Below the pieces are notes generated by a model that was given only the letters and a program-made list of their open reading frames with translations, was not told where the DNA came from and searched no databases. A stretch of DNA of 64,000 nt from assembly GCA_022711715.1 (NCBI GenBank), contig JAKLEC010000003.1:1256-65255 (forward strand), written 5' to 3'. A program made the position numbers and the translations under genes. Below, piece by piece: positions 1,560 to 58,498 of the stretch. Within the stretch, counting starts at the first letter, position 1. The number at the start of each line of letters is the position of its first letter. The stretch is from Acidobacteriota bacterium (GTDB lineage: Bacteria; Acidobacteriota; Aminicenantia; UBA2199).

Positions 1560-1575
1560 GCGCCCTCCTTCATGT

Positions 1576-1604
1576 CATCATAACAAACCAGAGCTCACCG
1601 GACA
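1576..1604 (-). promoter_or_regulatory. Sigma70-like promoter candidate for tsaD (TTGTCC-17-TATGAT)
   Basis: On the minus strand, TTGTCC is at 1604-1599 and TATGAT at 1581-1576, with a 17-nt spacer. It lies about 15 nt upstream of the tsaD RBS. Confidence 0.4.
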
Positions 1605-1617
1605 ATCAAAAAGAACA

Positions 1618-1800
1618 ATTCGAGCTATCGTGACGCGTAACGCGTGACGCGTGACGCGTAAAGCCATTACCGGAAGCCACAACGAACAAATTACAAAAAG
1701 AGTACTTTTTATAACTTTCCCAGAAAGCAATCCTTGAAGGCTTCAGTTTCGGCTGATGCTCGCTGCTCGTCACGCGTCACGCGTTACGCGTCACGAAGGC
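1618..1800. repeat. Inverted heptamer-array hairpin element, copy 2 (GTRACGC class)
   Basis: 1629-1655 (CGTGACGCGTAACGCGTGACGCGTGAC) is the exact reverse complement of 1769-1795, giving a perfect 27-bp stem. The loop is about 110 nt and AT-richer. Confidence 0.9.
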
Positions 1801-1803
1801 CTG

Positions 1804-6420: not shown

Positions 6421-7401
6421 CTACGCCAGGCCCTTTTCGGCCAGCCATTCGTCGTTGTAGATGGTGCTCAGGTAGCGGGAGGCGCCGTCGGGGAAGACGG
6501 TGACGATGCGCGCCGGCCCGTCGAGGCGCTTGGCCAGTTGCCGCACTCCCCACAGGGCCGCGCCGCTCGACCCCCCCACCAGGAGTCCTTCGCGGCGGGC
6601 GATCTCGCGGGCGGTGAGGAACGCCTCGCGATCGGTCACCTGCAGCATGTCGTCGATGTGGGTGAATACGGCGCAGCCGATGAGGAACTCGTCGCCCAGG
6701 CCCTCGATCAGGTAGGGGCCGGGCTTGACCAGTTTCCGGTGATGGAAATAGTCGTGGAAGACCGATCCCAGGGGATCGACGGCGATCACCCGGATGCGCG
6801 GGTCCTTCTCCTTCAGGAAGCGGGCGGTCCCGCCGACGGTGCCGCCGGTGCCGATGCCGGCGACGAAATAATCGATGCGCCCCTCCATCTGCTCCCAGAT
6901 CTCCGGGCCGGTCCCCCGGTAGTGGGCCTCGTTGTTGTCGAGGTTGTTGTGCTGGTCGGGGAAGAAGCAATTGGGGGTCTCCCGGGCCAGGCGCGGCGTG
7001 ATGTTGTTGTAACTGTCGGGATGCTCGGGCGGCAGGGTGCTGTCCACCATGTGGATCTCGACGCCGAGAGCCCGGAGCTGATCCAGCTTCTCGCGGCTGA
7101 TGCGGTCGCGCACCACCACCTTCAGGCGGTACCCCTTTTGCAGGGCGATCAGGGCCAGGCCGAGGGCGGTGTTTCCCGAGGAGTTCTCGATGATCAGGTC
7201 GCCCGGCTTGATCTTTCCCTCCCGTTCGGCCTTCTCGATCATGTAGCGGGCGATGCGGTCCTTGGAGCTGCCCATGGGATTGAGGAATTCCAGCTTGGCG
7301 TAGACCTCGCCGGGGATGTCCTGGGCGATCCGGTTCAGCCGCACCAGCGGCGTGTGGCCGATGACGTCGATGACGCTCTGACAGCAGCGGGCTTTATTCA
7401 T
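6421..7401 (-). CDS. PLP-dependent cysteine synthase / cystathionine beta-synthase family protein
   Basis: GHTPLVRLNR...LEFLNPMGSSKDR (PLP lysine motif)...GTGGT loop. 326 aa with no CBS pair. Confidence 0.85.
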   Translation of the reverse strand: MNKARCCQSVIDVIGHTPLVRLNRIAQDIPGEVYAKLEFLNPMGSSKDRIARYMIEKAEREGKIKPGDLIIENSSGNTALGLALIALQKGYRLKVVVRDRISREKLDQLRALGVEIHMVDSTLPPEHPDSYNNITPRLARETPNCFFPDQHNNLDNNEAHYRGTGPEIWEQMEGRIDYFVAGIGTGGTVGGTARFLKEKDPRIRVIAVDPLGSVFHDYFHHRKLVKPGPYLIEGLGDEFLIGCAVFTHIDDMLQVTDREAFLTAREIARREGLLVGGSSGAALWGVRQLAKRLDGPARIVTVFPDGASRYLSTIYNDEWLAEKGLA

Positions 7402-7442
7402 CGTGACCTCGGGAGGAACGCGAAAATCAAGCGGAAGGGAGG

Positions 7443-7471
7443 ATTTTACTCCAAAAGCAGGGACGAGTAAA
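7443..7471 (-). promoter_or_regulatory. Sigma70-like promoter candidate for the cysteine-synthase-family gene (TTTACT-17-TAAAAT)
   Basis: On the minus strand, TTTACT is at 7471-7466 and TAAAAT at 7448-7443, with a 17-nt spacer. It directly abuts repeat copy 3. Confidence 0.4.
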
Positions 7472-7480
7472 GATGAACCG

Positions 7481-7730
7481 AACTATCGTGACGCGTAACG
7501 CGTGACGCGTGACGAGTAACAGCAATGAAACGATACGGCGTTCAATCGCCGATGACCAACCGTGCTTCCCCGGACGATCAAGCAAGCGGCAGCAGAAAAC
7601 TATGATAAATTGAATGTCCCTGGTTCAATCGGAGCGGAAAAGTCCAATTCGCCGGCTCGGCTTTCCCGTACGCCCTATGCCGTACGCCAAGCTCCTTTCT
7701 TATTACCCGCGCGTTACGCGTCACGATTGC
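7481..7730. repeat. Inverted heptamer-array hairpin element, copy 3 (GTRACGC class)
   Basis: 7485-7502 (ATCGTGACGCGTAACGCG) is the exact reverse complement of 7710-7727. The left array continues to about 7520. The loop of about 190 nt contains CGTACGC CCTATGC CGTACGC heptamers at 7667-7687. Confidence 0.85.
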
Positions 7731-8053
7731 TCATCCTTCAACAAAGCTATGAGCTTGCGATACCCGGGATCGGCCTGCACAATCTCGATCCCCAGCCCCA
7801 CCGGCGCCTCCTCCCCCTGGACATCCGGCTTCTGTCTTTTCCACACCACCAGGCCGGTGACGGAGTAGATGTCGTCGCCCGAGGCAAGGAGGATCCGCAG
7901 CCGGCTGCGCCGGCGGATGACCCGGGTGGTGGCGACGCACATCCCGCGGCGCGAAATGTTCACCGTCACCCCCATCTGGTCCAGGCCGCGGCGGCTGATG
8001 TCGACCAGCAGGCTTTTCCTGACCCTTGGCTCCTTGCGTTTCCTTGTTTTCAT
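7721..8053 (-). CDS. PilZ domain protein (putative c-di-GMP receptor)
   Basis: 110 aa with RxxxR-like RVRKS and D/NxSxxG-like DISRRG / NISRRGMCV motifs. Confidence 0.75.
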   Translation of the reverse strand: MKTRKRKEPRVRKSLLVDISRRGLDQMGVTVNISRRGMCVATTRVIRRRSRLRILLASGDDIYSVTGLVVWKRQKPDVQGEEAPVGLGIEIVQADPGYRKLIALLKDEQS

Positions 8054-8295
8054 TCTTTTAATGTAATTATAGTATGAACCATTTCGTTAAAGCAAAAGCA
8101 ATGCATGTGCCAACCGGGTGGTGGATGGGATCGTCCAGCCAAGCCGGACAGAATTGGCCGTGTTTAGGCGGTTTATTTTTCCTAATTTTTATTCAAGGAT
8201 GGAATTTGAAAAATAAATTTGACAATTTTTTGTCGTTTCGAGTGTGTATTTTTTTTACTTTTATTACATCCAAGAAAAATTCTAGAAAAATTAAG

Positions 8296-8324
8296 TTGAC
8301 GGCAGGGGAAAGAAATGCTATATT
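8296..8324 (+). promoter_or_regulatory. Sigma70-like promoter for the SPFH operon (TTGACG-17-TATATT)
   Basis: TTGACG at 8296-8301 and TATATT at 8319-8324, inside the AT-rich island. GGAGG RBS lies before the ATG at 8361. Confidence 0.5.
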
Positions 8325-8360
8325 TATGATATCATTTCGATAGCACAAGAGGAGGAACTA

Positions 8361-9257
8361 ATGATAACCGAAAAGAAAGGCGTATCGTTCAACGGCTGGG
8401 CGGTCATCGGTCTGCATATCCTGCTGATCGCGGCCATTGTTTGGATTTTTGCCTCCGGAATGAGCTTCATCACCATGACGTTGCCGAAGATCGTGCTCGT
8501 GATCGTCCTGCTGGCGACCGTGGCGGTCATCCTTCCCCCCGGCTACTTCACCCTGCAGCCCAACGAGGCCAAGGTGCTGGTGCTGTTCGGCAAGTACAAG
8601 GGAACCGTATCCAAAGACGGCTTCCACTGGACCAACCCTCTGGCCCTGGCCCAGCCCCGCGGACGCTACACCGTCTCGCGCCGCATCCGCAACTTCGAGG
8701 TCGAGAAGCTGAAGGTCAACGACAAACGCGGCAACCCCATTGAGATCGCCGCCGTGGTGGTGTGGCGGGTGGTCGACACGGCCCACGCCCTGTTCGACGT
8801 CGACCATTACGAGCACTACGTCAAGATCCAGAGCGACGCCGCCCTGCGCCACCTGGCCAACTGCTACCCCTACGACCACGGCGAGGAGGAGGAGGAGATC
8901 ACGCTGCGCAGCGGCATGGAGGAAGTGGCCCTGGTGCTGAAAAAGGAGCTGCAGGAGCGGCTGCAGAAGGCCGGCGTCCAGGTCGAGGAGACCCGCCTCA
9001 CCCACCTGGCCTACGCCCCGGAGATCGCCAACGCCATGCTGCGCCGGCAGCAGGCCGAGGCCATCATCGCCGCCCGGCGCAAGATCGTCCACGGCGCCGT
9101 CTCCATGGTCGAGATGGCGCTGGAGGACCTGAAAACCAAGAACGTCGTCGACCTCGACGAGGAGCGCAAGGCGGCCATGGTCAGCAACCTGCTCGTCGTC
9201 TTGTGCGGCGAGGCCGAGGCCCAGCCGGTGATCAACGCCGGCACGCTGTACAAATAA
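8361..9257 (+). CDS. SPFH/band-7 (stomatin/prohibitin-like) membrane protein
   Basis: Two N-terminal TM helices, then an SPFH core (...NFEVEKLKVNDKRGNPIEIAAVVVWRVVD...). Confidence 0.9.
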   Translation: MITEKKGVSFNGWAVIGLHILLIAAIVWIFASGMSFITMTLPKIVLVIVLLATVAVILPPGYFTLQPNEAKVLVLFGKYKGTVSKDGFHWTNPLALAQPRGRYTVSRRIRNFEVEKLKVNDKRGNPIEIAAVVVWRVVDTAHALFDVDHYEHYVKIQSDAALRHLANCYPYDHGEEEEEITLRSGMEEVALVLKKELQERLQKAGVQVEETRLTHLAYAPEIANAMLRRQQAEAIIAARRKIVHGAVSMVEMALEDLKTKNVVDLDEERKAAMVSNLLVVLCGEAEAQPVINAGTLYK

Positions 9258-11305: not shown

Positions 11306-11365
11306 CAACGGAACCCGGCATACGGCGTACGACAGGTTTTTATTGGATGGGTTTTTCGCCGTGGC

Positions 11366-54714: not shown

Positions 54715-54895
54715 CCAAGAAATTTTTGTGATAGTGGTAGTGATAGTGGTAGTAACAGCAATAAAAAGCTTTAATTAGAATCTGGCGAAAGTATCTTCAC
54801 TTTTACCTTTTTACTTTTACCTTTTACCTTTGGCTTCAGTTGTCATTACAGGGCTTGCCACTACCACTACCACTATCACTACCACTTAGAATTCA
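54715..54895. repeat. Inverted hexamer-array hairpin element, copy 1 (GTGRTA class)
   Basis: Left arm 54728-54757 is GTGATA GTGGTA GTGATA GTGGTA GTAACA. Right arm 54858-54887 is CCACTA CCACTA CCACTA TCACTA CCACTT. 54734-54753 is the exact reverse complement of 54866-54885 (20 bp). The interior holds a (C)TTTTAC(C) tandem tract at 54795-54833. Confidence 0.85.
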
Positions 54896-58246: not shown

Positions 58247-58440
58247 CTCTCCTCGCGAATATTATAGGAAAGCGGGGAATTCCCTGTCAAGTCGCGGCTG
58301 GGCAATAAAAAAGAAACTCGCACCCGGTGTCAGCATCGGTGTTGGTGACAGCAACAGCGATCAGCAAGCACTTATTGGAATCCTGGCAGATAGCCCTTCA
58401 CTTTTTCCTTTTACCTTGTTAGCGCCTTTGTGAGGAGAGC

Positions 58441-58472
58441 AAAAAAAAGGGCCAGGTCGCGGGACCTGGCCC
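58441..58472 (-). terminator. Rho-independent terminator
   Basis: The minus strand reads GGGCCAGGTC-CCGC-GACCTGGCCC, a 10-bp perfect stem, followed by T8. It lies 26 nt downstream of the stop at 58499. Confidence 0.8.
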
Positions 58473-58498
58473 TCGTGTCTCTCGGTCTTGGCTTCGCC

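What the first reader, a model, noticed from the sequence alone, without database searches (positions are those of the whole stretch)
7481..7730. Copy 3 supplies the last codons and stop codon of the PilZ gene and carries nested heptamer tracts
The right terminus (CGCGTTACGCGTCACGAT, 7710-7727) overlaps the PilZ ORF end. The final codons CAA TCG TGA (7729-7721, minus strand) are element sequence. This suggests the element inserted into or reshaped the 3' end of the gene. The loop also holds a second heptamer class (CGTACGC CCTATGC CGTACGC, 7667-7687). Its complement type (GGCATAC GGCGTAC) appears at 11317-11330 in another convergent gap. The left arm ends in GTAACAGCAAT, a junction motif also seen in the hexamer-class element at 54752-54762 and as GTGACAGCAAC at 58346-58356. 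That links elements whose arm units differ.
Basis: seen in the sequence. Interest (0 to 1): 0.62.

Follow-up and report, generated by a model that had tools for sequence, protein, structure and literature searches.

The report
Heptamer-armed repeat ends the PilZ gene
A small non-coding repeat, present in over 100 copies in this uncultured digester bacterium (called Aminicenantes in earlier scan notes), has replaced the tail of a PilZ gene and now supplies its last three codons and stop codon; this is routine for the family, because its 7-base repeat arms stop translation in every reading frame.

Summary
Window 7479-7733 is one gene-less copy of an abundant, genus-restricted foldback repeat. 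Each end has an 8-nt flank (CGArCwAT), 2-4 heptamers (CGTRACG) and a 12-nt junction (AGTARCNGCAAT). The two ends face each other across a unique, AT-richer loop.

The PilZ ORF (8053..7721, minus strand) reads GAG CAA TCG TGA inside the flank and first heptamer. All 19 same-genus orthologues run 2-38 residues further, and one species shows the empty site, so the element replaced the tail.

This is general. In 28 of 126 class-A arms that a gene reads into, the stop codon lies in the arm, because inward-reading arms hold TGA/TAA in all three frames. The junction motif is about 20-fold enriched genome-wide and follows four array classes. The nested GGCGTAC-type tract is itself a dispersed module.

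The copies have no target duplication, no shared loop sequence and no left/right arm covariation. So this is neither a classical MITE nor a co-evolving RNA helix.

One copy with identical arms carries a PF05635 (23S-rRNA-IVS protein) gene. Across the genus these genes are bracketed by inverted 6-7-mer arrays whose unit tracks the protein tree. Copy 3 is best read as a gene-less derivative of an IVS-like cassette. How it moves and what it does remain unproven.

The parts
7479..7486 (+). Outer flank of the PALP-side end (CGAACTAT)
   Evidence: Matches the 8-nt consensus CGArCwAT derived from 218 arms. It is directly followed outward by GTTCATC, the sequence that sits next to the PilZ stop codon at the empty site of G002.
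7487..7514 (+). PALP-side arm: four heptamers CGTGACG CGTAACG CGTGACG CGTGACG
   Evidence: It has the commonest centre pattern, GAGG. A sister strain (L034) has only two units here.
7515..7526 (+). Inner junction AGTAACAGCAAT
   Evidence: Conserved at positions +1..+12 after class-A arms. The exact motif occurs 34 times genome-wide against about 1.5 expected.
7527..7711 (.). Unique, AT-richer loop; the junction on the PilZ side (7700-7711) is degenerate
   Evidence: No match elsewhere in the genome or genus except for the nested tract. No Rfam family. No PF05635 remnant. There are 17 substitutions against strain GCA_016294905.1 while the PilZ CDS has none.
7666..7688 (-). Nested second-class tract GGCGTAC GGCATAG GGCGTAC (class E)
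   Evidence: This is the only part of the loop that recurs in the genus: 22 other places in G000, 32 in G005 and 23 in G043.
7712..7725 (-). PilZ-side arm: two heptamers (minus strand CGTGACG CGTAACG). The first holds the PilZ stop TGA (7723-7721) and two bases of the Ser codon
   Evidence: row C62 - 58210, d=5.
7726..7733 (-). Outer flank of the PilZ-side end (minus strand TGAGCAAT); encodes Glu-Gln and the first base of Ser
   Evidence: Matches the flank consensus at 7 of 8 positions. In strain GCA_016294905.1 and in run X6 the variant GAG TAA here ends PilZ at 108 aa.
7721..8053 (-). PilZ-domain gene, 110 aa, C-terminal tail replaced
   Evidence: Pfam PF07238 over residues 5-103. PilZ-PALP synteny is kept in 19 relatives. 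Tail comparison.
7443..7471 (-). Promoter-like site TTTACT-17-TAAAAT for the PALP gene, just outside the element
   Evidence: The same TTTACA...TAAAAT block is conserved in the relatives' short intergenic regions.
6421..7401 (-). Downstream PLP-dependent enzyme gene (PALP family), not part of the element

Best explanation
Window 7479-7733 is a gene-less copy of a genus-restricted foldback element family. The organism is an uncultured bacterium found in anaerobic-digester and wastewater metagenomes; the earlier scan notes place it in Aminicenantes.

Anatomy. Each end is a module of about 48 nt: outer flank CGArCwAT, then (CGTRACG)2-5, then junction AGTARCNGCAAT. The two modules point inward across a loop that is unique to each copy.

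Origin. The complete form of the element carries a PF05635 (23S-rRNA intervening-sequence protein, pentameric four-helix bundle) gene in the loop. One such copy with identical arms sits at C54:9339-9890 of this genome. Copy 3 is therefore a non-autonomous derivative of an IVS-like cassette.

What happened here. The element lies exactly between the PilZ coding end and the promoter of the next gene. It replaced roughly the last 10 or more codons of the PilZ tail. The ORF now runs 11 nt into the element and stops at TGA in the first heptamer.

Why this is tolerated. Read inward, CGTGACG and CGTAACG hold TGA and TAA, and the 7-nt period shifts the frame by one at each unit. Any incoming ORF therefore stops within 19 nt.

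Shown: the anatomy, copy number, empty site, tail replacement, stop supply, the association with PF05635 genes, and variation in unit number between strains.

Inferred:
- The element is co-transcribed as the PilZ 3' UTR.
- Its arms pair into a long dsRNA stem that RNase III cuts, as in rRNA IVSs.
- The heptamer arrays are the binding sites of the cognate PF05635 protein.

The spreading mechanism is unknown.
For: Anatomy and abundance:
- 213 arm tracts and 63 clean inward-facing pairs against 2 outward-facing pairs.
- Arm read depth about 20,000 against 40-77 for the flanks in four metagenomes.
- Present in 20 of 25 genus genomes and in none of 16 genomes from other families.

Tail replacement:
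- Orthologues are 112-148 aa with a tail that is basic in most.
- G002 empty site: TAG|GTTCATCCTTTACA. G000...ATAGTTCG|GTTCATCTTTAC.

Stop supply:
- 28 of 126 gene-facing arms hold the stop codon (18/8/2 in units 1/2/3), 7 more have it in the flank and 9 abut it exactly.
- 139 arms face stop codons (median gap 14 nt) against 69 facing starts (median 59 nt).
- The three-frame stops were verified by translation.
- A natural allele, GAG TAA, ends PilZ two codons earlier, still inside the element.

PF05635 link:
- C54:9428-9796 encodes a PF05635 protein (135 bits; PDB 2GSC at 1.4e-28) inside a canonical class-A element.
- Most of 29 PF05635 loci fetched from the genus are bracketed by inverted 6-7-mer arrays.
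- The protein tree splits by arm unit with the minimum possible number of changes (14; shuffled mean 21.2; 0 of 200 as low). The CGTRACG clade is sister to AGTRACR.
- The three genomes with a class-A-type PF05635 gene have more class-A arms than the rest (Mann-Whitney p=0.011).

Transcription and folding:
- A metatranscriptome contig with 0 mismatches runs from the PilZ CDS through the arm into the loop, 7572-7845.
- The RNA fold pairs the arms: -104 kcal/mol, z=-3.15.

Literature:
- The Coxiella IVS has tandem heptamers of variable number upstream of its S23p ORF, and an RNase III cut at the first repeat (PMC4990558).
Against: - Copy 3 has no PF05635 remnant, so its descent from a gene-bearing cassette is inferred from shared arms only.
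- The protein/arm correlation may simply reflect physical linkage, and some loci are orthologous.
- At least eight genus genomes, some 93-97% complete, have class-A arms without a detectable class-A-type PF05635 gene.
- The two arms of one element are no more complementary to each other than arms of different elements (32.7 vs 33.5 of 48). There is therefore no evidence of selection for the stem itself.
- No empty site was found among close strains, so mobility is seen only between species.
- The RNA evidence is a single unstranded assembled contig and could come from DNA carry-over.
- PF05635 proteins have no known catalytic activity that would move DNA.
Confidence: 0.65

Rival explanations
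1. Each arm module is an independent binding array for a DNA- or RNA-binding protein, placed at gene boundaries as an insulator, nucleoid protein site or mRNA-end factor site. It is not a mobile element. Inverted pairs arise because both sides of an intergenic gap need one.
For: There is no covariation between the two arms of an element and no target duplication. The loops are unique. Arms abut stop codons and are enriched in convergent gaps: 18% of such gaps against 5-10% of others.
Against: At the PilZ-PALP site the whole 255 nt, loop included, is absent in G002 and in most relatives, so arms and loop arrived together. Inward-facing pairs outnumber outward-facing ones 63 to 2, and 69 arms face gene starts, including the distal arm here. 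The same arms bracket a PF05635 gene as a discrete cassette at different loci in three species.
Confidence: 0.1
2. The element is a structured cis-regulatory RNA or unusual terminator that serves PilZ or the downstream PALP gene, kept for its fold.
For: The predicted fold is more stable than shuffles (z=-3.15). The element lies in the PilZ 3' UTR and is probably transcribed.
Against: No Rfam family matches. No compensatory variation between arms. The loop is the fastest-changing part, 13% divergent against 0% for the neighbouring CDS. The PALP promoter lies outside and downstream of the element. There is no U-tract terminator. More than 100 copies sit next to unrelated genes.
Confidence: 0.1
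3. It is a REP/REPIN-type repeat moved by a RAYT (Y1 tyrosine transposase).
For: No target duplication. It is a foldback of two inverted units. The genome has two 304-aa Y1_Tnp genes.
Against: Neither Y1_Tnp gene is flanked by class-A modules. The C1 copy is flanked by a different hairpin repeat of about 70 nt. Y1_Tnp genes occur in 25 of 26 genus genomes regardless of class-A abundance. Loops are 100-250 nt and unique, unlike REPIN spacers.
Confidence: 0.07
4. It is a classical cut-and-paste MITE derived from an insertion sequence with a DDE transposase.
For: It has terminal inverted repeats, a high copy number, an intergenic location, and presence/absence differences between species.
Against: No target-site duplication at any offset from 0 to 13 and any length from 2 to 8. 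Internal sequences are unrelated between copies. The only gene found between such arms is a PF05635 four-helix bundle, not a transposase.
Confidence: 0.05
5. The overlap is coincidental: PilZ always ended here, and the matching bases are chance resemblance to the element's end.
For: PilZ tails vary in length within the genus, 110-148 aa.
Against: No orthologue ends at this residue. 7 of 8 flank bases plus the full heptamer match the family consensus. 27 other genes end the same way. No trace of an ancestral tail or stop lies beyond the element.
Confidence: 0.03

Closest known systems
ORF-bearing intervening sequences (IVS) of 23S rRNA (Coxiella burnetii, Leptospira, Xanthomonas; S23p/IVP protein, PF05635)
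   Same: Both are stem-loop elements bounded by inverted repeats. Tandem heptamers of variable number lie next to the ORF (GACAGAT in Coxiella, PMC4990558). The loop may carry a PF05635 gene; here C54:9428-9796, with PDB 2GSC as homologue. Neither has a transposase or a known means of spread.
   Different: Copy 3 lies between protein-coding genes, not in rRNA. It has no ORF. It is one of more than 100 gene-less copies. Its arm provides a host gene's stop codon. RNase III excision is not shown here.
TAACTGA heptamer direct repeats of Beggiatoaceae, cyanobacteria and Bacteroidetes (MacGregor 2015, PMC4679880)
   Same: Both are short intergenic arrays of 2-6 heptamers, with stop codons in all three frames in one orientation. 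MacGregor already noted that such arrays can overlap a gene end by at most about 18 nt. Their function is unknown.
   Different: The TAACTGA arrays are mostly solitary direct arrays just upstream of start codons. Here the arrays come as inward-facing inverted pairs with a conserved flank and junction, mostly at stop codons.
Cyanobacterial STRR heptanucleotide repeats
   Same: Lineage-specific families of tandem 7-nt units dispersed in non-coding DNA (from my own knowledge and the earlier scan notes).
   Different: As far as I know, no conserved flank or junction modules, no paired foldback architecture and no stop-codon supply have been described for STRR. This was not tested here.
REPIN/BIME repeats with RAYT transposases
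   Same: Both are abundant intergenic foldbacks made of two inverted units, without target duplications, and some are built as mosaics of modules.
   Different: The arms here are tandem heptamers and the loops are long and unique. The RAYT-like genes of this genome are not flanked by these arms.
Rickettsia palindromic elements and Neisseria Correia elements
   Same: Small foldback repeats whose insertion alters coding ends or transcripts of host genes (from my own knowledge).
   Different: Those families have homogeneous internal sequences. Correia elements make TA duplications, and RPEs insert in frame. Here the loops are unique, there is no duplication, and the arms terminate ORFs.

Membership tests
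IVS-like PF05635 cassette with inverted heptamer arrays | Two inward-facing arrays of tandem 6-7-nt units bracket the element | tested here: met
   7487-7514 (4 units) and 7712-7725 (2 units).
IVS-like PF05635 cassette with inverted heptamer arrays | PF05635 (IVP/S23p) ORF in the loop | tested here: not met
   No PF05635 match in C62. tblastn with 29 genus IVPs against the loops gives nothing for copy 3. It is therefore filed as a gene-less derivative, not a full member.
IVS-like PF05635 cassette with inverted heptamer arrays | Same flank, unit and junction as a gene-bearing copy | tested here: met
   C54:9339-9890 reads cgaacatt-(CGTGACG CGTAACG CGTGACG CGTGACG)-AGTAAAAGCAAT ... (CGTCACG CGTCACG CGTTACG CGTCACG)-atagactg around the ORF. 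The G019 and G009 cassettes have the same build.
IVS-like PF05635 cassette with inverted heptamer arrays | Excision of the stem-loop from the transcript by RNase III | not testable with these tools
   Only a predicted stem and one unstranded RNA contig across the arm.
23S rRNA intervening sequence (strict sense) | Inserted in helix 25 or 45 of 23S rRNA | tested here: not met
   It lies between the PilZ and PALP genes, and there is no rRNA in the window.
MITE (DDE-type) | Target-site duplication flanking the terminal inverted repeats | tested here: not met
   63 pairs, offsets 0-13, lengths 2-8: no excess over shuffled partners.
MITE (DDE-type) | Copies share internal sequence derived from a parent IS | tested here: not met
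   48 of 62 loops match nothing else in the genome.
REP/REPIN-RAYT | RAYT gene flanked by the same repeat | tested here: not met
   The Y1_Tnp genes at C51:58083-58994 and C1:82711-83622 have no class-A modules beside them.
Heptanucleotide repeat arrays (STRR / TAACTGA kind) | Short tandem arrays of a 7-nt unit dispersed in intergenic DNA | tested here: met
Heptanucleotide repeat arrays (STRR / TAACTGA kind) | Stops in all frames in one orientation limit the overlap with gene ends | tested here: met
   Translation of the canonical arm. Observed overlaps are 5, 12 or 19 nt only. The same property is described in PMC4679880.
Intrinsic terminator | Short GC-rich hairpin followed by a U tract at the gene end | tested here: not met
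   The only terminator-like hit is a 5-bp stem inside the loop, no more than shuffles give.
Any Rfam RNA family | Score at or above the gathering threshold | tested here: not met
   Only two tRNAs in the window. Best match in 7380-7780 is 14.9 bits against a gathering score of 50.

The most novel reading that the evidence does not exclude
The heptamer arrays are the cognate recognition sites of pentameric PF05635 (IVP) proteins. One master cassette (C54:9339-9890) would then service more than 100 gene-less class-A copies in trans. The elements would be removed from transcripts at the RNA level (RNase III at the arm stem, guided or protected by the protein). That would explain how they can sit codon-to-codon at gene boundaries and even supply stop codons without harm. 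rRNA intervening sequences, STRR-like heptamer repeats and these Aminicenantes foldbacks would then be one class of transposase-free element.
Probability: 0.3. Interest if true: 0.8.

Novelty: new variant of a known kind. Interest (0 to 1): 0.55.

Why it matters
On its own, a repeat that trims a non-essential PilZ tail is a small event. It is, however, a clean and datable example, with an empty site, two natural stop alleles and a variable unit number. It shows how an unusually abundant repeat family lives at gene boundaries: its arms are three-frame stop traps, so genes can fuse to them safely.

Together with the gene-bearing sibling copy, it ties the unexplained bacterial heptamer repeats and the function-unknown PF05635 / 23S-IVS protein family to one testable system. 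I found no paper describing such elements in Aminicenantes.

For annotation, it warns that many C-termini in these genomes are repeat-derived, and that assemblies break at these arms (contigs L035 and L036 start inside the arm).

Tried and rejected
- Rfam at gathering and at permissive thresholds found no family.
- The target-site duplication scan found none.
- All-against-all comparison of loops, and loops against the genome, found only shared nested arrays. The loop against 28 genus genomes matched only through the class-E tract.
- 27 unique loops (4.3 kb) against 50,697 phage records gave no match, so there is no support for captured phage DNA.
- RAYT hypothesis: Y1_Tnp genes are present but not associated with the arms.
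- Hairpin covariation between the two arms of each element: none. I therefore dropped 'conserved RNA helix' as the main reading.
- Homology between the G000 loop and the different insert at the same site in G013/G003 is only weak, in reverse orientation (z about 4). I left open whether this was an inversion or an independent insertion.
- Searching the close strain's whole record through its locus handle failed because the record is not held. I walked to it through an identical PALP protein instead.
- Search for an empty site among close strains in four DNA metagenomes: none. The few 'skip' joints have short sides and come from other copies.
- PF05635 remnants in gene-less loops: none.

Full report
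**What is there.**
The region lies on the minus strand between a 110-aa PilZ-domain gene (8053..7721; Pfam PilZ over residues 5-103) and a PLP-dependent enzyme gene (7401..6421).

The 319-nt gap holds a foldback element. On the plus strand it reads as follows:
- outer flank CGAACTAT (7479-7486);
- four heptamers CGTGACG CGTAACG CGTGACG CGTGACG (7487-7514);
- junction AGTAACAGCAAT (7515-7526);
- a loop of about 185 nt;
- two heptamers CGTTACG CGTCACG (7712-7725);
- outer flank ATTGCTCA (7726-7733).

The one exception is GTGACAGCAAC, which is at 58345-58355 rather than 58346-58356.

**The family.**
The arm pattern occurs 22 times in the window against 0.06 expected. In the whole 2.09-Mb assembly (138 contigs, 82% complete, 66% G+C) I found 213 arm tracts. 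Sixty-three form clean inward-facing pairs with loops of 31-498 nt.

A position profile over 218 arms shows three conserved parts: an 8-nt outer flank CGArCwAT, the heptamers, and a 12-nt junction AGTARCNGCAAT.

Inward-facing pairs outnumber outward-facing ones 63 to 2. In digester and wastewater metagenomes the summed depth over the arm is about 20,000, against 40-77 over the flanks.

The class-A arm is found in 20 of 25 genomes of the same genus, with 0-128 hits per genome. It is found in none of 16 genomes from other families of the class. Earlier notes of this scan place the genome in Aminicenantes and describe the family in general terms. I did not rely on them for the points below.

**The PilZ end.**
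The ORF ends GAT GAG CAA TCG TGA. GAG-CAA-T is the outer flank (7 of 8 matches to the consensus), and CG-TGA-CG is the first heptamer. Three residues and the stop codon are therefore element sequence.

PilZ-PALP synteny is kept in 19 other species of the genus. Their PilZ proteins are 112-148 aa, mostly 119, and most carry a basic tail after the conserved PGY-x-K-F-I-A block. None ends where G000 does, and G000 is the shortest.

In species G002 the gap is only 79 nt and reads TAG|GTTCATCCTTTACA...; this is the promoter of the next gene. In G000 the distal end of the element reads ...CGTCACGATAGTTCG|GTTCATCTTTAC.... The element thus occupies exactly the space between PilZ codon ~106 and the first base after the ancestral stop. 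No displaced coding remnant is left, so this is a replacement of the tail rather than a simple insertion.

The promoter-like TTTACT-17-TAAAAT (7471-7443, minus strand) lies outside the element.

Two species, G013 and G003, carry a different, degenerate insert at the same place.

**Close strains.**
A strain with 1.1% coding divergence (GCA_016294905.1), another metagenome contig and four DNA metagenomes all carry the element at this site. Three kinds of variation were seen:
- A C-to-T change gives GAG TAA, so PilZ ends at 108 aa. The stop is still inside the element. This allele is fixed in one metagenome.
- The distal arm has two units instead of four in one assembly.
- The loop carries 17 substitutions in 132 nt, while the PilZ CDS has none and the PALP gene has one.

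The arms are unchanged in all of these. At window 1560-1803 the same strain pair differs by a complete exchange of the intergenic element, with extra substitutions in the adjoining codons. That looks like recombination with a diverged allele.

**Stop supply is a family property.**
Read inward, the canonical arm translates with TGA or TAA in all three frames within 19 nt. Read outward, the arm is open.

I used a GC3-based gene call (1,679 genes, 86% coding). Of 126 class-A arms with a gene reading into them:
- 28 hold the stop codon in the arm: 18 in unit 1, 8 in unit 2 and 2 in unit 3 (chi-square p=0.0009 against equal frames);
- 7 hold it in the flank;
- 9 abut the stop codon exactly.

Arms face stop codons twice as often as start codons (139 vs 69), with a median gap of 14 nt against 59 nt. 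The same logic was described for TAACTGA heptamers by MacGregor (PMC4679880).

**Junction and nested tracts.**
The exact motif GTARCNGCAAT occurs 34 times in the genome, against about 1.5 expected under Markov models and 0 for the reversed control. It or a close variant follows arrays of four classes: CGTRACG, TCGTRAT, GTGRTA and GTGTTN. In the window alone, with one mismatch allowed, it is not enriched.

The loop tract GGCGTAC GGCATAG GGCGTAC (minus strand) belongs to a class with 102 arrays in the genome. It is the only part of the loop that recurs elsewhere in the genus. Nine of 62 class-A loops hold such foreign arrays, usually right next to the junction. The 11317-11330 pair is a two-unit member of the same class.

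**What it is not.**
- No target-site duplication at any offset.
- Loops are unrelated to each other and to the rest of the genome (48 of 62). They are 47% G+C against 66% for the genome. They match no phage record.
- No Rfam family matches.
- The two Y1_Tnp (RAYT-like) genes are not flanked by these arms.
- The two arms of one element are not more complementary to each other than arms taken from different elements (32.7 vs 33.5 +/- 0.3 of 48 positions).

The last point means each arm is held to a family consensus; the pair is not maintained as a co-evolving helix. This argues for sequence-specific recognition of each arm rather than for a selected RNA stem.

**The gene-bearing sibling.**
One class-A element (C54:9339-9890, canonical flank, arms and junction) carries a 122-aa PF05635 protein in its loop. 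This is the 23S-rRNA intervening-sequence protein family. The hit scores 135 bits, and the protein matches the pentameric Xanthomonas structure 2GSC at 1.4e-28.

A second PF05635 gene, at C116, lies between inverted GTACCAC-type heptamers.

In the genus, 18 of 28 genomes have 1-13 such genes. Most of the 29 loci I fetched are bracketed by inverted 6-7-mer arrays that abut the neighbours' stop and start codons.

On a maximum-likelihood tree of 27 of these proteins, the arm-unit class needs only the minimum 14 changes (shuffled mean 21.2; 0 of 200 as low). The CGTRACG clade (four different loci in three species) is sister to an AGTRACR clade. Linkage, and some orthologous loci, could explain part of this.

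Close relatives of the C54 protein (69% identity or more) occur only in G000, G019 and G009. These three have more class-A arms than the other genomes (p=0.011). Even so, at least eight genomes have arms without such a gene.

Other agents of this scan had already reported PF05635 cassettes with heptamer arms in many phyla. My result is an independent confirmation within this genus, and it connects this gene-less copy to that class.

In the literature, the Coxiella IVS has tandem GACAGAT heptamers of variable number next to its S23p ORF, and an RNase III cut at the first repeat (PMC4990558).

**Likely working.**
Shown: the element arrived as an arm-loop-arm unit, replaced the PilZ tail and provides the stop codon. 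The PilZ domain itself is intact.

Inferred, with odds:
- It is transcribed as the PilZ 3' UTR (about 60%). The basis is one error-free metatranscriptome contig over 7572-7845, which is unstranded and could be DNA carry-over.
- The arms pair and are cut by RNase III, as in rRNA IVSs (about 30%).
- The arrays are bound by the cognate PF05635 protein made from the C54 copy (about 35%).

How copies spread is not known. Recombination between the identical arms, or in the flanking genes, clearly shuffles loops and whole elements between strains.

**Verdict.**
The element is a new variant, gene-less, high-copy and stop-supplying, of a known but unexplained kind: IVS-like, heptamer-array elements. 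The single event has modest interest. Its value lies in the clean comparative evidence and in the link to a testable protein partner.

Noticed in passing
window 1560-1803: Two strains differ by 1.1% in coding DNA, yet the whole intergenic element here differs. G000 has a class-A heptamer foldback. GCA_016294905.1 has an element with AAAAGGT-type arms plus a GCCGTAC tract. Substitutions also cluster in the last codons of the neighbouring genes, which suggests recombination with a diverged allele.
   Followed up: partly
window 7537-7668: The loop of copy 3 is 13% divergent between two strains whose flanking PilZ and PALP genes differ by 0 and 1 base. Metagenomes show mosaic loop haplotypes. The cause could be import through the identical arms or local hypermutation; this is not resolved.
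   Followed up: partly
G000 C54:9339-9890 (outside the window): A canonical class-A element whose loop encodes a 122-aa PF05635 (23S rRNA IVS protein) gene. It is a candidate master copy of the family.
   Followed up: yes
G000 C116:4100-4600 (outside the window): A second, possibly truncated PF05635 gene lies between inverted GTACCAC/GTACCAT heptamer arms. This array class is not otherwise examined here.
   Followed up: no
G000 C1:82300-84000 (outside the window): A 304-aa Y1_Tnp (RAYT-like) gene is flanked on both sides by a hairpin repeat of about 70 nt (GGGGACGGAGGATTAA...TTAAAGTTCCGTCCCC). This is a separate REP-like family.
   Followed up: no
window 8401-8800: There are 60 substitutions in 400 nt of the Band_7 gene between the two close strains, against 2-4 per 400 nt elsewhere. 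This is a recombination tract inside a gene.
   Followed up: no
L006 (G013) and L007 (G003), PilZ-PALP gap: The two species share a different insert of about 140 nt at the same site. It has degenerate arms (one CGTCACG unit left in G003) and a GCCTTAC-GCC tract, in the opposite orientation to the G000 element.
   Followed up: partly
L035, L036 (Logan contigs): Short-read contigs of two runs begin inside the distal arm (GCGTCACGCGTTACG...). The arms break assemblies, so copy numbers in MAGs are underestimates.
   Followed up: no
window 58345-58475: A degenerate element with a CTTTTAC-type tract is followed by a clean GC-rich hairpin (GGGCCAGGTCGCGGGACCTGGCCC) that looks like an ordinary terminator.
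   Followed up: no
window 8054-8360: The stretch upstream of PilZ is unusually AT-rich and about 300 nt long (runs of T/A, e.g. 8170-8290), in a genome of 66% G+C. It was not examined.
   Followed up: no
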